Shown: positions 21,173 through 57,790 of the stretch, piece by piece
How the letters are laid out: every line of letters starts with the position of its first letter
How positions within the stretch are numbered: position 1 is the first letter of the stretch
Source: a virus
Taxonomy: Duplodnaviria; Caudoviricetes
Strand: one strand, 5' to 3'
DNA length: 64,000 bases
Virus record (IMG/VR): IMGVR_UViG_3300010163_000001
Coordinates: 32,001-96,000 of that record
Program-made: the position numbers and the translations under genes
The notes under the pieces: model-generated
Told to the model about the DNA's origin: nothing
What the model saw: only the letters and a program-made list of their open reading frames with translations
The model's database searches: none

Positions 21173-21180
21173 AAAATAAA

Positions 21181-21210
21181 AAAAAGAGATTCCATTAGGA
21201 ATCTCTTTTT
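21181..21210. terminator. Bidirectional intrinsic terminator
   Basis: aaaaagagattcc-atta-ggaatctcttttt. Confidence 0.85.
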
Positions 21211-21211
21211 T

Positions 21212-21504
21212 ATTACTATGCATATCTACCTCAAAACATTGCTCTACCCTTCGCATCTATTCCCACACATATCCATGCTCCGCACTTCCTATTCGTAACA
21301 ATACCGTGCTAGGCTTTTCCTTATCAAGACTTAACTACGCCCAGCTTCTCCTATACATAACATAGCTTAACTGTACACTACAATGCTGCGCCATTTCATT
21401 ACTTACCACACTGTACTGGGCTATTCCTTTTCTATACTCAACCAAGCAACTCATTTCCTATGCATTACTACACTCTACGTTACGTTACAGTACCACTCCT
21501 TTAC
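21212..21504 (-). ncRNA. Pentamer-periodic (G-N4) repeat array 1, candidate non-coding RNA
   Basis: ~57 consecutive G-initiated units, mostly 5-mers, punctuated by GG hexamers; no ORF of 60 aa or more; lies between a stop codon and a terminator. Confidence 0.75.
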
Positions 21505-21505
21505 A

Positions 21506-21799
21506 TTACCAATGTCCAGTTTTTAGTCGTTGTTTTATTTCTAACTCTTTTTTGAATTTTTTTCTTTCCTTACGATATTTTCTACTATATTTCATAAGGA
21601 TCTCATGAACCATCTGTGTGTTTATTTGGTCATTGCTCACTGGATTTACATCATACCAATTTTCTCCGAGCAAATAATCCTTTAGAAAATATAATGCATC
21701 GCTGTCCGTTGTTGGTGGATTGAACAAATTGCTTTTCTGGTTTGGCTTATTATCCTCTTCGTTAATATGTTCTGTAAATGTTTTTCCTTTTGCATACAT
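21506..21799 (-). CDS. Hypothetical protein
   Basis: AGGAGG RBS; immediately upstream of array 1. Confidence 0.75.
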   Translation of the reverse strand: MYAKGKTFTEHINEEDNKPNQKSNLFNPPTTDSDALYFLKDYLLGENWYDVNPVSNDQINTQMVHEILMKYSRKYRKERKKFKKELEIKQRLKTGHW

Positions 21800-21837: not shown

Positions 21838-22065
21838 CTATTTTCGTATAGTAATAGTGTCTTTAAATTGTGTAATATAAATACACATATCAATATATTT
21901 CATAGTTGTTTTTGTAGATACGAAATTTATAGCATTGGCAATTTCATTTCTAACATCATCTTCTGTTTTATCTTTGACCATAATACAATCGTTATGATCA
22001 AAAGGGCCATATAGATTTTCACATGCATCGATTATATCATTTTTAACATCTTCTAAAACTTTCAC
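21838..22065 (-). CDS. Hypothetical protein
   Basis: GTGA overlap with the rusA stop. Confidence 0.6.
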   Translation of the reverse strand: MKVLEDVKNDIIDACENLYGPFDHNDCIMVKDKTEDDVRNEIANAINFVSTKTTMKYIDMCIYITQFKDTITIRK

Positions 22066-22748
22066 CAGTAGTCATCTCCCTCGGTATAAATTTCTATAAT
22101 ATGTCCTAATTCAATAGCATCTTTGAATGATTTCGAAGTTGTTACTCGTCGTTTATTAAATTTGGAATCAAACCCTTTCTGATAGTTAATCATAATTTCT
22201 ACTCTTGGTTTTACAGAATAATATTTTTCAACTAATCCTTTTGAAATAATATTATCATTTGTAATAAGAATCTTTTGAACCATATCAGAATATGTCTTAC
22301 CTAAATTATCCCAATCTGGATTTGATATTGGAATAATACTTTGTTTTTCTGCTCGGTATATTTCAATTCGATTCATAGATGAAATTGGGGTAGGCATAAA
22401 CGTTCTTACACTAAAATGGGTTTGTGTATAAATAATTTGATATTTTTCTACAATAAATTTCTTTAAAAGTTTCTTGTTTTCAGAGGCTCCCATAACATAA
22501 AAAGAACCTGTTTTACTTGAGTATCTTGGTCTTGGAGATGGGTTAGGGACAATTGGAAGAATTACCCTTAGTGTTTCCCAAGGAATCTCTTTTTCATGCT
22601 GTGTATCTTCTTCTATCTTTTTGAAATCTTTTTCTTTTAGCTTTAGTGAATCTTCCAAATATTTTAAAATTTCATTTGTTTCCAACGGAATATTTCCATA
22701 TTTCATTTCATACATTTCTAATTGTGCTTCACAACGTCTTTCTTTCAT
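22062..22748 (-). CDS. rusA: RusA-family Holliday junction resolvase
   Basis: PSPRPR, PDWDNLGK..SD, ND, KYYSVKPRVEI. Confidence 0.85.
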   Translation of the reverse strand: MKERRCEAQLEMYEMKYGNIPLETNEILKYLEDSLKLKEKDFKKIEEDTQHEKEIPWETLRVILPIVPNPSPRPRYSSKTGSFYVMGASENKKLLKKFIVEKYQIIYTQTHFSVRTFMPTPISSMNRIEIYRAEKQSIIPISNPDWDNLGKTYSDMVQKILITNDNIISKGLVEKYYSVKPRVEIMINYQKGFDSKFNKRRVTTSKSFKDAIELGHIIEIYTEGDDYW

Positions 22749-22769: not shown

Positions 22770-24440
22770 TTATCCTATTAATGAAGTAAGTTTTTTTATC
22801 TCATTATAAATTCTTGAGTCTATTACAGATCTTGCAATATTTGTTGGTATGTCTAGAGCTTTATTTTTCATTACTCTTAATGCTAAATCTACCTTGGCAT
22901 CAAGATTATTTAATTTTAAGTCAACACCACACATATTTCCTAAATATTCTAATAACGCAGTATTCTTCAGAAGAAGTAATGGATCTGTTGCGCTTGTTAC
23001 CATCAAATTAGAATATAATGGAACAATTTCAAATCGTGCAGTTATTTCAGTTGGTAATCCATCAACTGTCCAACAAGTTCCGTCATCTCCACCCCTACTA
23101 AAATCTAATTTTTGTATGAACGCTAAATCAGAACTAAAACTACCAGTTTCAAATGCTCTTACTAAATATGGATACGTATACATATTACTTGATAGTTGCT
23201 TTGGAGTCGCTAATGCAAGTAAATGTAATGAGGGTAAAATAACATATTTAAAAATACTTCGTTTATCTCCATAAATTGATGTGAATTTTAATTCCACTGA
23301 TAATGCTTTACTATAATCCATTCCAGTTATCATTTTTGGAAATACGAGTCGACCGCCATTTAAATAATTCTTTGCAATTGTAGCCATTCCTCCTAAGAAT
23401 TCACTTTGAGTTCTAGCTTCTTTCATCACAGACTCAATATCAGCACTTGCTTCTGGAGTAATTGCTCCACCAAATAAAAATTGAATATTTTGAGCTAATT
23501 CAGAAAAGTTACTTTCTGAACCGAATTGTTTCTCCAAGTATGATTGTCCTGCAGTTGTAGAAATCGACTCAGATACTGAAGTGCCCGAATGATTAATAAA
23601 AAAATGAATGTAATGATCATCACCTACTGCAGAATTAAATACACGCTTGGTTTCATCAAAAAGATTTTTTGATGCTTTTGCACCTGACGCAGTTGTATAA
23701 TACCCGTAGTCGAAATCACCTAACGGAATTGAACTTCCATATATAATATTTGTGACATTCTGAAGTCCCATTAATCTTGCAGCTACTCGAGCTAGCATAT
23801 TAACTACATTCATATAATCTGTGTACCTAGATTTAAATGCATACAATTGCCCATTTGAGTCTATTTCATTATCCGCTTCTGCTAAATTTAAAATTCCATC
23901 AGTCATTGCTCCTTTTATTCGTGAAAAAAATTGATTTTTCTTTTTTGAGGAAAATCCAGGTAAATAATCTACCGTTCCTGGGCATAATGATAAAATTGAT
24001 GGATTAGAAAACCATGTTCCACTCATTACTCTACCAGTTTGGATTTCTGGATCTGGTAAATCATAATATGGATCAACTTCTTCTGTAAATCTTGGAGGAG
24101 AACCAAATGCATGTAAATAACGAAGCATCATTTGTGCATAAGATTTATCACTGTTTCCAGTAATACTTTTTTGACCTTGTACTGTATCTGTATTTTCTGC
24201 TTCTATTCCAGAGTTATTACTTGTACTGCCCCCACTAATCTTTGTTAATGCGGACATAACAATCCATCTTGGTGTTCCAGAATTTGCTGCATTACCATAT
24301 TGCTGATTATTTGCTCCCGGCCCTTTTTCATATATTTTAACAGTATTTCCTTCTGAATATTTAAACGTGACATTTGATGTTGTGTCTTTTGATTCAAATG
24401 CTACTGCTCCACCTTTACCAACTCTATAAACATCTGCCAT
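22770..24440 (-). CDS. Putative virion tail/baseplate protein
   Basis: 556 aa; AAC-N7-TAA at 24467-24479; WTVDGLP motif. Confidence 0.5.
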   Translation of the reverse strand: MADVYRVGKGGAVAFESKDTTSNVTFKYSEGNTVKIYEKGPGANNQQYGNAANSGTPRWIVMSALTKISGGSTSNNSGIEAENTDTVQGQKSITGNSDKSYAQMMLRYLHAFGSPPRFTEEVDPYYDLPDPEIQTGRVMSGTWFSNPSILSLCPGTVDYLPGFSSKKKNQFFSRIKGAMTDGILNLAEADNEIDSNGQLYAFKSRYTDYMNVVNMLARVAARLMGLQNVTNIIYGSSIPLGDFDYGYYTTASGAKASKNLFDETKRVFNSAVGDDHYIHFFINHSGTSVSESISTTAGQSYLEKQFGSESNFSELAQNIQFLFGGAITPEASADIESVMKEARTQSEFLGGMATIAKNYLNGGRLVFPKMITGMDYSKALSVELKFTSIYGDKRSIFKYVILPSLHLLALATPKQLSSNMYTYPYLVRAFETGSFSSDLAFIQKLDFSRGGDDGTCWTVDGLPTEITARFEIVPLYSNLMVTSATDPLLLLKNTALLEYLGNMCGVDLKLNNLDAKVDLALRVMKNKALDIPTNIARSVIDSRIYNEIKKLTSLIG

Positions 24441-29057: not shown

Positions 29058-29366
29058 TTATTTCAATAAACTGTAGATTGCATTTCGCTTTTCATCATCA
29101 AGACTTCTGCAATATTCTATAATTTTATTTTCCATAGAGTTAACCATAATGGAAATCGTCCGTTCATCTGGACTTTGAAAGAGTTCGGATAATGTTATGT
29201 GTAAAACATTACAAATATTTTCCAACTTTATTAAAGATGGTTGAGTATTGCCTCTCAGGATATTCTTCATGTCCTCTAATTCTATACCAGATGCTATTGC
29301 TAATGTTTCATCACTCCACCCATTATCATGTTTCAATTTCTCAATTTTATCATAGATATTAACCAT
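29058..29366 (-). CDS. XRE-family HTH transcriptional regulator
   Basis: GWSDETLAIASGI...ILRG..QPSLIKLENICNVLHITLSELF; ATATATTAT at 29402-29410. Confidence 0.85.
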   Translation of the reverse strand: MVNIYDKIEKLKHDNGWSDETLAIASGIELEDMKNILRGNTQPSLIKLENICNVLHITLSELFQSPDERTISIMVNSMENKIIEYCRSLDDEKRNAIYSLLK

Positions 29367-29479
29367 AGTTCTTCACCTCCCTTTTATATTATTTCATTGG
29401 AATAATATATGACATTTTTAAGTATGAATAGATTCAGTAAAACCTAAATATAAGAAATATAATAGAAAGGAGAATATAC

Positions 29480-30055
29480 ATGAATGATTTAAATAGATTT
29501 ATTAACTATTGCGATAATCAAGCAATTGCACAAGAGGGTTTCTTTACTAAATTAAAAGAAAAATTTAGTAAAAAATCAGATTCAACATCTTCATCTTCAA
29601 CACCATCTTCTTATGTATGGTATAATGGTGTTTCGGGATATGACCCAATTTATAATGATAAAGAAAAAAGGATAGAACTCGTTAAAAAAGCACTTCAAAT
29701 AGCAAATTCTTTAAGAAAAAATACTATTTTTAAAGAAAATGGTAATGGGATAGATTTATTTAAAAATACAAAAGATCTTTTAAATGGAAGTGAATATGAT
29801 ACTGAAAGATATTATGAATTCATTGAAGGAAAAAATAATGCTTGTGTTATAGGATCGTATTTTCAATGGGATTATGCAAAAACTGTAAATCAAAATGCAA
29901 GGGAACTTTATAGCAATGGGCCTACGCCAGTAGACGAATTTATTTATGACCAATTAAAACCTAAAATACAAAAATCTTTAAAAGGTGTATATGTTACTGG
30001 TGAAGGCGGAGATTGGGATGATGGCCCAATTGAATTAGTTATTGAGAGGTGGTGA
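29480..30055 (+). CDS. Putative head-packaged protein with FxxYCD...EG propeptide
   Basis: MNDLNRFINYCDNQAIAQEG; AAC-N7-TAA at 29441-29453. Confidence 0.65.
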   Translation: MNDLNRFINYCDNQAIAQEGFFTKLKEKFSKKSDSTSSSSTPSSYVWYNGVSGYDPIYNDKEKRIELVKKALQIANSLRKNTIFKENGNGIDLFKNTKDLLNGSEYDTERYYEFIEGKNNACVIGSYFQWDYAKTVNQNARELYSNGPTPVDEFIYDQLKPKIQKSLKGVYVTGEGGDWDDGPIELVIERW

Positions 30056-45980: not shown

Positions 45981-46108
45981 ACATCTCTGCACTAGACGAA
46001 ACACACTTAACTTTACTTCACAGAACCATAACAAACCATACTCCGCATAACCTTACCCATCCTCTTCTATACATTACTTTACTTCACAGAACCACAGCAT
46101 AGCTGTTC
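45978..46108 (-). ncRNA. Pentamer-periodic (G-N4) repeat array 2, candidate non-coding RNA
   Basis: ~26 consecutive G-initiated units with GG hexamers; 19-nt direct repeat at 46010-46028 and 46076-46094. Confidence 0.7.
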
Positions 46109-46122
46109 TATTTGTCTAATGA

Positions 46123-46662
46123 CTATGCAAAAATTTCATCCGCTCTTCTTGCCATGTCTTCAAAGGAAATCGAACCATTATACAATTTTCGACGACTCCT
46201 CTTGTTGTATATTACAACATTTGACACAACATTTTCTCCTTCAATACATTCTATATCAATTGGCTCTTGATTTTTAAGCTTACTGATAAATTCCGGAATC
46301 GTATTTGCTATACTTAATAAAGATGTCATGATATACCCTTCTAGAGTATCATCGTCATCCATGTCAATGACATCCTGCATTCCCATAACTTCCAAGCTAG
46401 TAACCTTCCCACCTGTTGTGTGGAAGATAATTGCTTCATGCAGCAAACCGAGCATTGCTATTTTCCGGTATTCATCTTTCCCGGCGCTGTCTATCAGTGC
46501 AGATGCCAATTGCTCAGGTGTAAAGGAGCCATTTAATCTCGGATCGCCGTCGAATTGCATTTCAGTAAGTGCCATCATTTGTTCTGTGATAATGGCAATT
46601 GCCATCGTAACTTTTAGTTCTCCCCATGCGTCCTTAAATTGATCAATAATATTGTTTTTCAT
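46123..46662 (-). CDS. Hypothetical early protein upstream of array 2
   Basis: GGAGG RBS; ATATATTAT at 46710-46718. Confidence 0.75.
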   Translation of the reverse strand: MKNNIIDQFKDAWGELKVTMAIAIITEQMMALTEMQFDGDPRLNGSFTPEQLASALIDSAGKDEYRKIAMLGLLHEAIIFHTTGGKVTSLEVMGMQDVIDMDDDDTLEGYIMTSLLSIANTIPEFISKLKNQEPIDIECIEGENVVSNVVIYNKRSRRKLYNGSISFEDMARRADEIFA

Positions 46663-52483: not shown

Positions 52484-52960
52484 CTACCGCCGCATATAGT
52501 ATTTTGCGGTAACTTTATTGATAGCTTCCTTTAAAAGTAAAGATGCTGCATTATTTTTGTATATGTTAACATAAGTTATATTAGGATGAATATTTGATAA
52601 CGTCGCTGCCATTGTACTAAGGGCCCGTTGTCCACTATCCTCCTTAACATATACATATACTGGAGTATCAATATGAAGAATTTCCAATTGATATAATAAA
52701 GCAAATCCAAACTCTGTTGAGAGCATTTGAATTTCTTGAGAAAACATCATATCGAGGTTCATTATGATTAAATCATATCCACGACACGCATTTTTTATTT
52801 TTTCTCTGGATTCCTCGAGGCTGTCGGCATGATCAATCTCGCAATATGAGTATCTATTCAGATGAGAAAGTTCTTCAACAATGCTATTTTTAATCTCATC
52901 ATCATGCTCAATAATCATTATTCTAGCCGTAGTTGGTTTAAGTATCTCATGAAATTCCAT
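52484..52960 (-). CDS. Atypical response-regulator receiver (REC) domain protein
   Basis: RIMIIEHD, YDLIIMNLDM (acceptor D replaced by N), GFALL, TPVYVY. Confidence 0.7.
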   Translation of the reverse strand: MEFHEILKPTTARIMIIEHDDEIKNSIVEELSHLNRYSYCEIDHADSLEESREKIKNACRGYDLIIMNLDMMFSQEIQMLSTEFGFALLYQLEILHIDTPVYVYVKEDSGQRALSTMAATLSNIHPNITYVNIYKNNAASLLLKEAINKVTAKYYMRR

Positions 52961-52961
52961 T

Positions 52962-53468
52962 TTAGTTCCCCTTTTTTATCCAATCTTTTTTAATAATACT
53001 GCTCACAACAGTTACAAATTCATCTTTTGACAACGCACTTATATTCTTGCTTGTTTCAGTGTTTTCCTCGAATTGCAATTCAGACCCTCCATTAAATAAG
53101 ACAACGTCTACCACATTGGAAAAGTTTCCGGTTACGTATTTCCGGTACGTAATAAAGTCAATCGGCTTTGCGCGTGAATAAATTAGAACAGGGGTGCTTA
53201 TATGCCAAAATTCCAATGTGTGTAAAAATGTAAGGGCAAATTCTTCTGATATAGTTGGAGTGTCATTCGAAAACTTCATTTCTCGATCCATAATAATTAG
53301 ATCATACCCATTTTTGGGATCAGATATTTTTTCTCTTGCATCAAAAAGAGTTTTTGATACAGTAACCGAAGGACATCCGGCATAAATTGAATCTTTTGAA
53401 ATACTGCGGACAACGTACTCATCATTTTCAATTATTAATACTCTTAATTCTGGTTTTTCAACTTTCAT
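52962..53468 (-). CDS. Response-regulator receiver (REC) domain protein
   Basis: Start MKVEKP after GGAGG; RVLIIEND, YDLIIMDREM, TPVLIYS; ATATATTAT at 53499-53507. Confidence 0.75.
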   Translation of the reverse strand: MKVEKPELRVLIIENDEYVVRSISKDSIYAGCPSVTVSKTLFDAREKISDPKNGYDLIIMDREMKFSNDTPTISEEFALTFLHTLEFWHISTPVLIYSRAKPIDFITYRKYVTGNFSNVVDVVLFNGGSELQFEENTETSKNISALSKDEFVTVVSSIIKKDWIKKGN

Positions 53469-53511
53469 TTTTATTATCCTCCTTTTTTCTATATAAAAAT
53501 AATATATGTTA

Positions 53512-54141
53512 TTAATCGAATGGTGTCTTTTGATTCTCTTTTGTAATATTATTATCATACGCATGATTTTCTATAATATAATTCATGCATAATAAACTCA
53601 TTGTAATTTCATTGGTAAAGCTAAAATCTTTTAATATTCCGAATAATATTCCAATCTCTTGAAACGTTAGTGATATACAATAATTTGATTTATTCACATA
53701 TAGGTGAATCCCTTCATATTCTTTATCACCTATATGTACAATTGTTGGTATTGCTTGCATTACAGATTGATCATAATCTCCTTTATGAGTAGTTTTTGAC
53801 AATCTCTTATAATCTGCATTAAAAATTAGATGGTTATCATCATTCAATAGAAATAAGTCATTAAACTTATCATCATAAAACCATTTCATGATATCATTAA
53901 AGAATGATATCACATGAAATAAATTCTTCGGTGTAATTTTATATGACGCTTTTGCATAATCATATTCTTCTGCTATATTTTTTGGTGGTTTATATCTTAT
54001 ATATAATACAGGATTTACATTTATTAGTAGATTACTTTTTCCTTTCCCATTTAACATTCCGTTTGGGAGATGCATGAAAAAGTCTAAATCCATTCTTGAA
54101 TTTGACCATATTTTCCTTGTTATTTTATTTATTGAATTCAT
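53512..54141 (-). CDS. Hypothetical protein
   Basis: GGAGG RBS. Confidence 0.7.
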   Translation of the reverse strand: MNSINKITRKIWSNSRMDLDFFMHLPNGMLNGKGKSNLLINVNPVLYIRYKPPKNIAEEYDYAKASYKITPKNLFHVISFFNDIMKWFYDDKFNDLFLLNDDNHLIFNADYKRLSKTTHKGDYDQSVMQAIPTIVHIGDKEYEGIHLYVNKSNYCISLTFQEIGILFGILKDFSFTNEITMSLLCMNYIIENHAYDNNITKENQKTPFD

Positions 54142-54180
54142 GCTTATCCTCCATATATCTTTTTAAAAGGTTGTAAAAAA

Positions 54181-54210
54181 GTGAATAGAAATGTTAACAT
54201 TTCTATTCAC
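54181..54210. terminator. Palindromic intrinsic terminator
   Basis: gtgaatagaaatgttaacatttctattcac, with a T-tract on the minus strand. Confidence 0.75.
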
Positions 54211-54212
54211 TA

Positions 54213-54383
54213 AAAATAATATGTCGTCATAAAAATAAGACGGAGGTAAACCCACCCAAGCACTTTATTTTATGCTATGGGTGGGCTACATGAGAAAACA
54301 CCAAACGTCGAAAAGTTCCTGCAGGAACGCTAATCAGAGGAGCTACCTCTATATAGGGTAATTCCGCCTATATTATCCTATAT
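54213..54383 (-). ncRNA. Candidate multi-hairpin ncRNA
   Basis: AAC-N7-TAA at 54383-54395, four or more hairpins, terminator at 54181-54210, no RBS/ORF. Confidence 0.45.
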
Positions 54384-54410
54384 TATATAAAAGTTATTCT
54401 GATTTATTTT

Positions 54411-55880
54411 TTAATCATAAATTTTAATTCGTGTAACTTTCTTGATTTTTGTTTCTTCTAAGTAATCTATACGTGTCTTTAATTTCTTTTTCGTGTAAGG
54501 AAATCCCATATCTGCAAACATGAAGTAAAATACATCAGATCCATCTGCCAAAGGTCTTGCTCTTCCACTACTTTGATTATCGTCTATTTTTGTGCAAATA
54601 CTGCATGATATTACATACTTTATCAAAGAGACATTGAGACCTTCGCTAAATGACTGATACGTAGATACAATCATATCACATGAGTTTTTACATTCCTCTC
54701 TTTCTTCATCTGGAACTTTCCCATGATATCTTCCAATCTTATATATATCTCCATATTTTTCTAGTAGAATCCTATGCAATTCATCTGTGTGCTCTATTAA
54801 ATTTACTAAAATAAGTATCTTATAGTTATTTTTATTTGTCTTTCTAATCATATCTAAGACATATTCTAAAGTGGAGAAGAATATGTCTTGTTTAAATTGA
54901 TATTTCATATATTCGTAGAAACTAAATCCTCTTTTCGTATATACAGAAGCTCTATCTAATTCAGAAGGTCTTGAATTGTATTGCACAATAATTGCTACCG
55001 TAAATTTTAGAGTATTCATCAATTCTGCAGATGGTCGAATAATTGGAACATTATGAAAGATATTATAATACAATCGCTCTTTCTCTTTATCCGATTGACC
55101 ATAATCCCCTGATAAGTAAATCGTTTTATCAATACTTGTAAATGCGTTTATTTTAATAATGTTTGAAATATTTCTATGAGACTCATCAAATACTTTGAAT
55201 CCTATTTTCATTTTTTCCATTAGTATATTAAGAGAATGAAACCCATATTTTTTTCCAAATGAGTTTAATAATCCTGGAGTACATAAGAAGATATCATATT
55301 CCCATACAGGGAAATCACCAAATGCAATTTTCTTTAATAGTAAGGAATCGTCAATAAGAAGTATACGAGATGGATCCATTGTAGAATCTTCCTTTATAGC
55401 AGATACCCATTGTTTTAGGATGTCTTTCTTATAACACATAATCAATGTTTTTACATTGAAATATGAGATTAGATAAATCGTAAGTAACGTTTTTCCCAAT
55501 CCTTGAGATAAGTAAACAAACCACTGTTTTTTCTTTTCTGATGATAAAATTTGTTGAATAATTACATACTGAACTTCTCTTGGTGTGATATTATCATTCA
55601 AATGAAATGGTGAATTCAATGATTCTTCTTTTGTTGGTAGTATATCTACCACCTTATAAGTTGGAAATTGTGCTTGTAAGAATAATCTGTCATGTAAGTG
55701 TGTTACGAAACATGGATCTGTATTTTCGTAATCCAAATAAAAACCGGTTACTGGATGTCTGGTGTGTCTGACTTTGTCATAGGTTGATGTAAGCTTTTCT
55801 AAATAATAATTTTGCTTTTTGTGATATGGAGTTATTCTAACTCCAGTGGTTGTTATTTGTATTTCTCCTTCTGCTTTCAT
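54411..55880 (-). CDS. SF2 DExH helicase (UvsW-like)
   Basis: QGLGKT, FDESH, QSSGRAR. Confidence 0.85.
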   Translation of the reverse strand: MKAEGEIQITTTGVRITPYHKKQNYYLEKLTSTYDKVRHTRHPVTGFYLDYENTDPCFVTHLHDRLFLQAQFPTYKVVDILPTKEESLNSPFHLNDNITPREVQYVIIQQILSSEKKKQWFVYLSQGLGKTLLTIYLISYFNVKTLIMCYKKDILKQWVSAIKEDSTMDPSRILLIDDSLLLKKIAFGDFPVWEYDIFLCTPGLLNSFGKKYGFHSLNILMEKMKIGFKVFDESHRNISNIIKINAFTSIDKTIYLSGDYGQSDKEKERLYYNIFHNVPIIRPSAELMNTLKFTVAIIVQYNSRPSELDRASVYTKRGFSFYEYMKYQFKQDIFFSTLEYVLDMIRKTNKNNYKILILVNLIEHTDELHRILLEKYGDIYKIGRYHGKVPDEEREECKNSCDMIVSTYQSFSEGLNVSLIKYVISCSICTKIDDNQSSGRARPLADGSDVFYFMFADMGFPYTKKKLKTRIDYLEETKIKKVTRIKIYD

Positions 55881-55936
55881 ATAAACCTCCTTTCAAGTAA
55901 TAATCACGGGTAGGATTTTTCCTACCCGTGATTTCC

Positions 55937-56101
55937 TTATTTAATATTTAATTCTGTCTTTACCTGATTAAATGTATCTGTAACTATTTGCTCTGTTAAT
56001 TCATCATAATCTTCAATGTTTTCAACCTTTGTCTTTGGAAACATTCTGGTACGATTTCCTTTTTCATCTATTGTATCAACATAACCATTGAACTCTTCCA
56101 T
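55937..56101 (-). CDS. Small protein (54 aa)
   Basis: AAC-N7-TAA at 56124-56136; MEEFNGYVDT...; terminator 55903-55932. Confidence 0.55.
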   Translation of the reverse strand: MEEFNGYVDTIDEKGNRTRMFPKTKVENIEDYDELTEQIVTDTFNQVKTELNIK

Positions 56102-56158
56102 AACATCCACATCCTTTCAAATATTATATGAATGTTTTTAAAGATATGAAGCGTATAA

Positions 56159-57790
56159 TTATTCGGAATCTGGTTTATCTGTAATTAGAATATATAACAT
56201 CCTCATACATGTCGAGTTCCATCTTGGGATTTCAAATTTTATAATAGAGGAACCAATAGGATTATCATCATCTATAAAAAGTTCCCCACTCATATGGACA
56301 ATTCCATCATCATAATGAGAGTGATTTGTAAGTTTCTTGTGGTGTTTTTCATCCAATTCAATATCTTTATCGCAAAAGGCAGTATAAACTTTCAATTCGT
56401 GACAACGAGATACACATGAATCAGAATATGGTTCTGTAAACCATAATTGATAATCATATCTTCCTGCCCCTAATTCAAACGCCCAATAAAGCATATTTTC
56501 GTTACGAATATCCCTCATCTGTCCCCATTCAAATGATGAGCAGGCATCTAAAGCAAATTCTTGTGTTGGTATGGAATTTCGTGTTTCTTCAAAATCCAAT
56601 AGTTCTTTCTTTGTACCATCTGGTAGTGCTATATCAAGTGTATTATCCCAAAAATATTCAACCAGTGGAGTACCAACAAATTTCTTTATTTCAGATGGAT
56701 AATCTATAATATCATGTGGAATACTATGATTTGGTTTATCACATGGACGATGATGGTGATGATGATGCTTAGGTGGTTTACAATCTGTGGATCCAAGTCC
56801 TCCACATCTATCGTCTTTAATATATTTATCATCATCAATCGTAACACCATATGGAAGGAATATTCCTTGACAAAATGCTTTTCCGGCTTCAAAATTTTGT
56901 GTATTTCGATTAATTCCAAGTAAATTCCTCCATTTTGTTAAAAATGAAGCAGGATTCGGATTTGGAGGATAATCTAAAAAGACAAAAATATGTCCTTCAT
57001 TATCTGCTTTAAAATAATCGGCATCTACAACTCCAACCGTATTTGTTAATCGAATACCCGTCTTACTCCCAATTCCGCTTCTTGGGAATAAAAATAATCC
57101 CCAATTAGGATTTGTAAAAACAGTTCGGATTCCAGTAGGGATTTTAATTGTTGTACCTGGGCATAACTCAAAGCTAAATGGTGCAAAAAAATCATACCCA
57201 GCAGAATCCGTTGTAGAACGTTTCGGCAATTTGATATTTTTATACATTTCCTTTAATTCATTAGGAGAAAAATCCGCTTGTGGAAATGTCTTCGTCATAT
57301 CCTTTACATATTCTTCAAGAGAGACTTTTTCAAATCTTGCTACCTTATTTTTACACTCAATATTTTTCCAATTCATAGGTTTTACTTTATTCAGTGCTTC
57401 TGTAAATTCATTTGTTTCAACATCTGGACGGAATGGGATCTCTGCGATTAATGTTGAATTGAGCATTTCATCTGTATAATTATAATGGTCAAATGTTCCG
57501 TATACGATAACAGGAATTTTGTATGTAGGAAATCCTGTTATCCACTTTAATAAATCAAAAGATAAATCTTCCGTCATCATAGTATCTGCTATATTAAATT
57601 CCCTTATTCTTGACCCAAGAATAATCACATCTAAATCTCTTTTAAAACGAAAAGATGACATAATTTGATTCATGGCGTCTTGTTTACATGTAACATGTGT
57701 TACACGTAGATCTTGTCGATTTACTTTCTTTAAATAGTATTCTAAGATACTATATTTGTAATCATTCGATTCAACTACTAATATATCCAT
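56159..57790 (-). CDS. dut: Trimeric dUTPase fused to an N-terminal REC-like domain and a C-terminal unknown domain
   Basis: SAGYDF, PRSG, GVVDADY, CQGIF, RCGGLGST; N-term MDILVVES...DVIILG...IPVIVY; His6 linker. Confidence 0.9.
   Translation of the reverse strand: MDILVVESNDYKYSILEYYLKKVNRQDLRVTHVTCKQDAMNQIMSSFRFKRDLDVIILGSRIREFNIADTMMTEDLSFDLLKWITGFPTYKIPVIVYGTFDHYNYTDEMLNSTLIAEIPFRPDVETNEFTEALNKVKPMNWKNIECKNKVARFEKVSLEEYVKDMTKTFPQADFSPNELKEMYKNIKLPKRSTTDSAGYDFFAPFSFELCPGTTIKIPTGIRTVFTNPNWGLFLFPRSGIGSKTGIRLTNTVGVVDADYFKADNEGHIFVFLDYPPNPNPASFLTKWRNLLGINRNTQNFEAGKAFCQGIFLPYGVTIDDDKYIKDDRCGGLGSTDCKPPKHHHHHHRPCDKPNHSIPHDIIDYPSEIKKFVGTPLVEYFWDNTLDIALPDGTKKELLDFEETRNSIPTQEFALDACSSFEWGQMRDIRNENMLYWAFELGAGRYDYQLWFTEPYSDSCVSRCHELKVYTAFCDKDIELDEKHHKKLTNHSHYDDGIVHMSGELFIDDDNPIGSSIIKFEIPRWNSTCMRMLYILITDKPDSE

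What the first reader, a model, noticed from the sequence alone, without database searches (positions are those of the whole stretch)
21212..21504. Pentamer-coded repeat array 1: G every 5th base, punctuated by GG-hexamers; candidate programmable guide-RNA array
Seen: the minus strand parses as gtaaa | GGAGTG gtact gtaac gtaac gtaga gtgta gtaat gcata | GGAAAT gagtt gcttg gttga gtata gaaaa | GGAATA gccca gtaca gtgtg gtaa gtaat gaaat | GGCGCA gcatt gtagt gtaca gttaa gctat gttat gtata | GGAGAA gctgg gcgta gttaa gtctt gataa | GGAAAA gccta gcacg gtatt gttac gaata | GGAAGT gcgga gcatg gatat gtgtg | GGAATA gatgc gaagg gtaga gcaat gtttt | GAGGTA gatat gcata gtaat. About 57 units in a row start with G in an AT-rich genome. 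Position 2 is mostly T/C and positions 3-4 vary freely. It is not a simple tandem repeat, has no long ORF, and fills the gap between a stop codon and a terminator. Inference: a fixed scaffold interleaved with variable dinucleotides is what a protein-filament-bound RNA with a non-contiguous targeting code would look like. The hexamers could mark processing sites for 26-41-nt RNAs. From unverified recollection, similar pentamer arrays occur beside Cas7/RAMP-like genes in Firmicutes phages (VIPR-type systems). No such protein is recognisable here, so any partner would act in trans.
Basis: partly seen in the sequence, partly recalled or inferred. Interest (0 to 1): 0.95.

Follow-up and report, generated by a model that had tools for sequence, protein, structure and literature searches.

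The report
VIPR guide-RNA array, jumbo phage
The odd stretch with a G at every fifth base is real and is most likely a string of guide RNAs for a VIPR system (a CRISPR-like phage system first described in 2026); its Cas7-like partner protein lies about 23 kb away, just outside the window, so this is a new example of a known kind.

Summary
Confirmed. Window 21212-21509 (- strand) holds 58 phased units (48 pentamers, 9 hexamers, 1 tetramer), nearly all starting with G. The chain score is 43, against at most 9 in 20 shuffled genomes. It fills the gap between the stop codon of a Tad8-like gene and a strong terminator. It is one of six such arrays, all on the - strand, in a complete 254.6-kb jumbo phage genome.

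VIPR is already published (bioRxiv 10.64898/2026.04.26.720920 and companion papers), including single-G repeats and staggered arrays. This scan has noted VIPR systems before in at least 27 other genomes.

What stands out here is that the arrays are unlinked from vipr and dispersed at operon 3' ends. Array 1 is also absent from the closest syntenic relatives. No targets or RNA data were found.

The parts
21212..21509 (-). vrRNA-type array 1: 58 units phased on G, about 9 super-units (41, 31, 35, 41, 31, 31, 26, 36 nt plus short ends), each bounded by G-Y-A-A-N-G|G-A-A/R
   Evidence: chain score 43 against a shuffle maximum of 9; no excess RNA structure; no open frame.
21180..21211 (-). intrinsic terminator that closes the array transcript (14-pair stem followed by a T run)
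21506..21799 (-). Tad8-like (anti-Thoeris) gene. Its stop codon overlaps the first array unit, so the array is probably transcribed as its 3' extension.
   Evidence: PF25189, E 7.9e-25; in syntenic relatives the terminator follows this gene directly and there is no array.
45982..46108 (-). second, shorter array of the same grammar (26 units). It lies after the 179-aa ORF 46123-46662 and before a terminator-like hairpin.
   Evidence: score 18.5

Best explanation
Array 1 is a multi-guide vrRNA array of a VIPR system.

Proposed mechanism:
1. The array is transcribed on the - strand as the 3' extension of the Tad8-like gene and ends at the terminator (inferred from the layout).
2. The phage's own Vipr protein is a minimal Cas7-like RAMP encoded 23 kb away at genome 29111-29872 (-), with its own ribosome-binding site and terminator. 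It polymerises on the RNA, one protomer per pentamer, gripping the fixed G (inferred by homology to the SUSP1 cryo-EM work).
3. The +1 slips at G-Y-A-A-N-G|G-A junctions divide the transcript into about nine short guides of 5-8 pentamers. They may be cut there or read as staggered units (inferred).
4. The variable bases of each pentamer pair with DNA in a gapped register, and the bound filament silences genes of competing phages, satellites or the host (by analogy only).

In the G-loop, the published G1 contact D177 is replaced by Q, while the G2-stacking W178 is kept. This would fit a repeat that keeps only one G followed by a pyrimidine-biased base.
For: - Six - strand arrays score 16.5-84, against a shuffle maximum of 9.
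- One ORF in the genome matches a type II Vipr profile at the G-loop. A profile-profile alignment is collinear over 183 columns (E 0.009).
- The top BFVD hit is a viral 'RAMP superfamily protein', 41% identical.
- 80/80 viral loci (directly flanking) and 76/80 bacterial-genome loci (within the 3-kb flanks) that encode relatives carry same-strand arrays by the gene. They share the single fixed G, the 26/31/36-nt super-units and the junction consensus.
- The papers describe Vipr plus pentamer vrRNAs, the alternative repeats YNNNG and NNNNG, staggered arrays and non-canonical motifs such as WGT/NN.
- The array has no coding potential and no excess fold.
- The genome has no CRISPR-like repeats, and the Pfam RAMPs model (PF03787) finds no match in it.
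Against: - There is no expression or processing evidence; no sequencing run was listed.
- No target stood out. Self-matches and matches in 1.3 Mb of related phage DNA equal the shuffled controls under 9-14 pairing rules. Two 18-base gapped patterns gave 0 hits and 6 hits in IMG/VR; the 6 hits are 4 unrelated sequences. One 16-base pattern gave 1 hit against 3 control hits in 401 Clostridia genomes.
- Sequence similarity to the characterised type II Vipr is weak (13 bits).
- The vipr gene is not next to any array here.
- The guides are shorter than the published 9-16 repeats and have no structured 3' tail.
- With only two bases read per pentamer, a 31-nt unit would specify about 12 nt. Shuffled guides of this size find a perfect match in the 254-kb genome about 20% of the time.
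Confidence: 0.85

Rival explanations
1. The components are the same (the Vipr-like RAMP plus the arrays), but the complex reads RNA or uses a denser code. Only the phased G would be flipped out and up to four bases per pentamer would pair, as Cas7 backbones flip every sixth base. The short units would then be specific enough, and the target could be mRNA.
For: The nearest solved folds are RNA-targeting Csm3 and type VII Cas7. Only one base per pentamer is fixed. A two-base code gives low specificity for 5-8-unit guides.
Against: One 24-base pattern (four of five positions from an array-1 guide) has no exact match in IMG/VR or in the JGI metagenome collection. Four-of-five rules gave no excess over shuffles locally. 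Published VIPR types all bind DNA with a dinucleotide code. These tests covered very few guides.
Confidence: 0.08
2. The arrays are not guides for the phage's own use. They would be decoys or sponges that titrate Vipr proteins of rival phages, or that regulate the phage's own Vipr, like the published orphan vrRNAs.
For: Orphan and solo vrRNAs that redirect a rival's Vipr are documented. The arrays here are unlinked from vipr, and array 1 follows an anti-defence gene.
Against: The genome encodes an intact cognate Vipr with its own expression signals. The arrays share the grammar and junction motif of arrays that flank vipr in 156/160 relatives.
Confidence: 0.04
3. The array is a binding platform for another RNA- or DNA-binding protein unrelated to Vipr (for example a TRAP-like ring reading spaced triplets), or a DNA-level structural or slippage element.
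For: TRAP-type sites also have a period of about 5. Period 5 is half a DNA helical turn.
Against: No TrpBP homologue was found in the genome. Only G is fixed and there is no (G/U)AG triplet. All six arrays are on one strand and each sits between a stop codon and a terminator. The arrays co-occur tightly with one RAMP family. The non-G positions are too diverse for a decayed microsatellite (121 distinct pentamers among 290).
Confidence: 0.03

Closest known systems
VIPR systems with alternative repeats (YNNNG, NNNNG) and staggered vrRNA arrays (bioRxiv 10.64898/2026.04.26.720920, methods and legend of fig. S18), and non-canonical motifs such as WGT/NN (bioRxiv 10.64898/2026.10.21.760802)
   Same: A stand-alone minimal RAMP, a pentamer repeat with a fixed G and a pyrimidine-biased next base, many guides packed head to tail and out of phase by one base, and carriage by a phage.
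   Different: Here no array adjoins vipr. Six arrays are scattered over 183 kb at operon 3' ends. I could not see the figures, so I cannot say whether the 5k+1 super-units with the G-Y-A-A-N-G|G-A junction are what the paper calls staggered arrays, nor which of the seven types this clade belongs to.
Type II VIPR of Escherichia phage SUSP1 (Vipr 195 aa + Vap1 + four vrRNAs; KT454805 27.5-29.5 kb)
   Same: The Cas7-like fold, the G-loop motif G-x-G-x-W...G-R-F, a period-5 RNA, and an array ending at a terminator.
   Different: SUSP1 has GGY/NN repeats, 9-16 per guide, a pseudoknot tail, a vap1 gene and vrRNAs flanking vipr. Here there is one fixed G, 5-8 repeats per unit, no tail, no recognisable vap, and D177/R179 replaced by Q/H.
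Orphan or solo vrRNAs in VIPR-null phages and satellites (bioRxiv 10.64898/2026.10.15.759431)
   Same: vrRNA arrays that sit away from any vipr gene and must be loaded in trans.
   Different: This genome is VIPR-positive, so the trans partner is its own.
Class 1 CRISPR backbones (Csm3/Cas7 filaments on crRNA)
   Different: There are no CRISPR repeats, no cas10, cas5, cas6 or adaptation genes, and the step is 5 nt instead of 6.

Membership tests
VIPR (Vipr + vrRNA) | Glycine-rich loop and thumb hairpin | tested here: met
   The near-invariant G-L/I-G-Q-W-H-N-S-G-K-G-R-F aligns with the SUSP1 G-loop. The model has a beta-hairpin at residues 147-171. This rests on a model, not an experiment.
VIPR (Vipr + vrRNA) | Non-CRISPR context | tested here: met
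   No CRISPR-like clustered repeats in the 254.6-kb genome. The Pfam RAMPs model (PF03787) finds no match in the genome. The vipr gene is monocistronic.
VIPR (Vipr + vrRNA) | Tandem pentamer repeats (>= 4 units) with a fixed G-containing part alternating with variable bases | tested here: met
   58 units in array 1 and 418 units in the six arrays; G at 96% of phased positions.
VIPR (Vipr + vrRNA) | Canonical GGY/NN repeat | tested here: not met
   Only one G is fixed, followed by T/C in 77% of units. This fits the published alternative classes YNNNG and NNNNG rather than GGY/NN.
VIPR (Vipr + vrRNA) | Array physically flanks the vipr gene | tested here: not met
   The nearest array is 23 kb from vipr, and there are no arrays in the flanks. 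The feature is met in relatives: 80/80 viral loci (directly flanking) and 76/80 genome loci (within the 3-kb flanks). The closest jumbo relative, L086, is also unlinked.
VIPR (Vipr + vrRNA) | Sequence homology to published Vipr proteins (PSI-BLAST family of X1U2U4) | tested here: inconclusive
   hhalign against a type II alignment gives E 0.009 over 183 collinear columns. hmmsearch gives only 13 bits. X1U2U4 itself was not available.
VIPR (Vipr + vrRNA) | Conserved structured 3' tail on each vrRNA | tested here: not met
   Units abut each other with only a G-Y-A-A-N-G|G-A junction. The array folds no better than shuffles. The papers say array architectures differ between types.
VIPR (Vipr + vrRNA) | Gapped (1-nt skip) recognition of natural targets | tested here: inconclusive
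   No excess over controls in the own genome, 1.3 Mb of related loci, IMG/VR patterns or 401 Clostridia genomes. Only a handful of guides could be searched widely, and only as exact matches.
VIPR (Vipr + vrRNA) | vrRNA expressed and co-purifying with Vipr | not testable with these tools
   No sequencing run was listed for this phage.
VIPR (Vipr + vrRNA) | Accessory vap gene next to vipr | tested here: inconclusive
   The downstream 189-aa gene is shared only with the closest jumbo relative and has no Pfam match. Common neighbours in smaller phages are SSB-like and SbcC-like replication genes.
CRISPR-Cas class 1 | CRISPR repeat-spacer array and further cas genes | tested here: not met
TRAP-type RNA attenuation site | TrpBP protein and (G/U)AG triplets | tested here: not met
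   No PF02081 match in the genome; no fixed triplet.

The most novel reading that the evidence does not exclude
In this jumbo-phage lineage VIPR has been taken apart. One unlinked vipr gene serves about 70 very short guides, each about one filament turn long. The guides ride as 3' extensions on operons of different function and timing (anti-Thoeris gene, tubulin, others), so that guide supply follows the infection programme. The single-G repeat may expose more than two bases per unit. Array 1 is absent from the closest syntenic relatives, which would then show guide cassettes moving into 'stop codon-terminator' gaps as mobile modules.
Probability: 0.2. Interest if true: 0.6.

Novelty: new member of a known kind. 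Interest (0 to 1): 0.4.

Why it matters
This extends a months-old class of RNA-guided systems in three ways.
- It gives a complete 254.6-kb jumbo phage of gut Clostridia-type hosts, distantly AR9/PBS1-like, that carries VIPR.
- It shows that vrRNA arrays need not sit next to vipr, so locus-based surveys will undercount guides and may call such arrays orphan.
- It points to a very large clade: more than 5,000 protein clusters, mostly from gut metagenomes. In this clade guides have one fixed G, 5-8 repeats and a conserved junction instead of a tail. That makes it a compact format worth testing for processing and for its pairing code.

The position of array 1 directly behind an anti-Thoeris gene hints at a shared counter-defence transcript.

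Tried and rejected
- **Pfam RAMP model:** PF03787 found nothing in the genome.
- **Candidates next to the arrays:** the proteins between the 212-kb and 215-kb arrays (245, 346 and 146 aa) and the other array neighbours are not RAMP-like. They have no Pfam or PDB sequence match and no homologues near vipr elsewhere.
- **Rfam:** no family matches in the window.
- **DNA relatives:** blastn against the GenBank phage collection found none. No IMG/VR relative of the convergent 517-aa gene was found. The Tad8-like gene is absent from two held jumbo records. The L086 record is not held for whole-record search.
- **Sequencing runs:** none was listed.
- **Target searches:**
  - Self-matches and matches in related loci equal the shuffled controls under 9-14 pairing and skip rules.
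  - Two 18-base gapped patterns from a 9-unit guide gave 0 hits and 6 hits in IMG/VR. The 6 hits are 4 independent, unrelated sequences.
  - A 24-base four-of-five pattern from an array-1 guide gave 0 hits in IMG/VR and JGI metagenomes.
  - A 16-base pattern gave 1 hit against 3 control hits in 401 Clostridia genomes.
- **Thumb arginine:** I considered mapping the published R138 onto this protein and dropped it, because the R-P motifs lie on different strands of the hairpin.
- **TRAP-like site:** rejected.

Full report
**The observation**

On the - strand, window 21212-21509 reads as 58 consecutive units phased on G: 48 pentamers, 9 hexamers and 1 tetramer. The first unit overlaps the TAA stop of a 97-aa ORF (21506-21799). 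The last unit abuts a 14-pair terminator (21211-21180).

I scored chains of G at steps of 5, with penalties for steps of 4 or 6 and for non-G units. The array scores 43. The maximum over 10 Markov shuffles of the whole genome, both strands, is 9.

The hexamers are +1 phase slips. They cut the array into pieces of 11, 41, 31, 19+16, 41, 31, 31, 26, 36 and 15 nt. The stretch is G-rich and C-poor, closed in all six frames, folds no better than shuffles (z -0.31) and matches no Rfam family.

**The genome and the other arrays**

The window is bases 32001-96000 of a complete 254,592-bp IMG/VR virus record with inverted terminal repeats. The phage is a distant AR9/PBS1-like jumbo phage (DNA polymerase 27% identical).

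The same detector finds six arrays, all on the - strand:

| Genome coordinates | Units | Note |
|---|---|---|
| 123232-123871 | 126 | follows a tubulin-like gene |
| 211948-212449 | 98 | |
| 214952-215393 | 86 | |
| 53216-53509 | 58 | this finding |
| 77982-78108 | 26 | window 45982-46108 |
| 236736-236856 | 24 | |

Each of the four I read base by base starts just after an ORF stop and ends at a terminator-like hairpin. The upstream genes are unrelated to each other: Tad8-like, a tubulin, and unknowns.

Pooled, internal pentamers read G 96%, then T 62 / C 15 / A 20%, then three positions near background. Super-units are mostly 26, 31, 36 or 41 nt, and there are about 72 in all. Junctions have the consensus G-Y-A-A-N-G | G-A-A/R.

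**What is known**

VIPR is published. Its components are a minimal RAMP (Vipr) and vrRNAs of GGY/NN pentamers. The protein forms a filament with one protomer per repeat, and the NN bases pair with DNA while skipping one target base.

The methods of the first paper list the alternative repeats NNNGG, YNNNG and NNNNG, and staggered arrays. A later paper lists non-canonical motifs such as WGT/NN. Another describes orphan vrRNAs loaded in trans.

**Finding the protein**

The genes beside the arrays are not RAMPs. I located the SUSP1 locus in KT454805 and built a type II Vipr profile. I then searched all 832 stop-to-stop ORFs of the genome with it.

The only ORF matching at the G-loop is genome 29114-29962 (-). 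Its C-terminal N-Y-G-A-L-N-G-L-G-Q-W-H-N-S-G-K-G-R-F lines up with SUSP1 N-A-G-N-L-C-G-V-G-D-W-R-P-R-F-G-R-F.

The gene (CDS 29111-29872, 253 aa) has its own ribosome-binding site and terminator and no adjacent array. It lies 2.1 kb before the window and 23.3 kb from array 1.

Supporting evidence:
- Its family is very large: 5,139 clusters at E <= 1e-3, typical length about 198 aa, no Pfam domain.
- Profile-profile alignment to type II Vipr is collinear over 183 columns (E 0.009). Plain profile scores are weak (13 bits).
- The top BFVD hit is a 41%-identical viral protein already named 'RAMP superfamily'.
- There is no second copy in the genome and there are no CRISPR-like repeats.

**Link between protein and arrays**

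All 80 IMG/VR loci encoding relatives have same-strand period-5 G arrays directly upstream and/or downstream of the gene. So do 76 of 80 loci in bacterial genome assemblies, within their 3-kb flanks; these are mostly gut Clostridia MAGs. They share the single fixed G, the 5k+1 super-units and the junction motif.

A distant jumbo relative (G001, 243 kb) keeps one 4.7-kb cluster of about 890 units right after vipr. The closest jumbo relative (L086, Vipr 62% identical) has a solitary vipr, like this phage, and an array 7.6 kb away. Dispersal is therefore a trait of this lineage.

**Array 1 in relatives**

Four contigs with the same synteny (556-aa gene at 70% identity, then RusA, then Tad8-like, then the convergent 514-518-aa gene) have only 52-70 nt between the Tad8 stop and the next gene. 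That is room for a terminator and nothing more, and the detector finds no array in them.

Neither a sequence nor a peptide is conserved at this spot. The array is either a lineage-specific insertion between the stop codon and the terminator, or it has been lost in the relatives.

**Mechanism**

Shown:
- the array, its strand and its terminator;
- a cognate-type RAMP in the same genome;
- family-wide co-occurrence of gene and arrays.

Inferred:
- transcription with the Tad8-like gene;
- coating by Vipr with one protomer per pentamer;
- division into 5-8-pentamer guides at the junctions;
- gapped pairing with DNA and silencing of rivals.

In the G-loop, the published G1 contact D177 is Q here, the G2-stacking W178 is kept, and R179 is H. 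This fits a repeat that retains one G followed by a loosely pyrimidine position. It rests on alignment only.

Which bases are read is open. Positions 4-5 are closest to background composition in this phage. The paper's register (YNNNG) would put the read bases at positions 3-4.

**Targets**

None was found. Guides this short cannot be discriminated by exact-pattern scans of very large collections, so this result is inconclusive.

**Verdict**

This is a real vrRNA-type array of a VIPR system. It is a new member of a known kind, notable for the unlinked, dispersed arrays and for the short tail-less guides. This scan had already flagged VIPR systems in at least 27 other genomes, and other first readers noted the sister arrays of this genome.

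Noticed in passing
window 21506-21799 (-): A 97-aa Tad8-like protein (type II Thoeris inhibitor family PF25189, E 7.9e-25) lies directly upstream of array 1. Syntenic relatives have 114-122-aa versions followed at once by a terminator.
   Followed up: partly
window 22062-22748 (-) and 22770-24440 (-): A RusA-like resolvase and a conserved 556-aa protein (some relatives carry an SH3 domain, PF08239) form a block shared with many 220-285-kb metagenomic jumbo-phage contigs.
   Followed up: partly
genome 29111-29872 (-), i.e. 2.1 kb before window base 1 (L005:7112-7873): This is the Vipr-like RAMP gene. It is monocistronic. The jumbo-phage versions (249-265 aa) carry a low-confidence insert and a basic C-terminal helix that the usual ~198-aa family members lack.
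   Followed up: yes
L002:6949-7450 and L002:9953-10394 (genome 211948-212449 and 214952-215393): Two long arrays bracket a three-gene cassette (245, 346 and 146 aa, no known domains) and share an identical stretch of about 42 nt near their 5' ends. Array 1 begins with the same G-T-A-A-A-G-G-A-G-T-G-G head.
   Followed up: partly
L001:7233-7872 (genome 123232-123871): The largest array of this genome (126 units) follows a tubulin/FtsZ-like gene (PF00091, E 4.4e-8).
   Followed up: partly
L063:10718-15394 (G001 52661-57337): A distantly related 243-kb jumbo phage has a single array cluster of about 4.7 kb and about 890 units immediately after its vipr gene. It is by far the longest seen here.
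   Followed up: partly
L112-L191: Relatives of this Vipr occur in bacterial genome assemblies, mostly gut Clostridia MAGs (Lachnospiraceae, Oscillospiraceae, Ruminococcaceae) from rabbit, ruminant, chicken and human samples. This suggests the host range of the clade.
   Followed up: no
L046, L053, L057, L061 and similar loci: One sub-group of relatives has arrays reading G-C-A-N-N (C 83-96%, A 72-92%). These also score on the opposite strand, so their fixed part differs from this phage's G-T/C.
   Followed up: no
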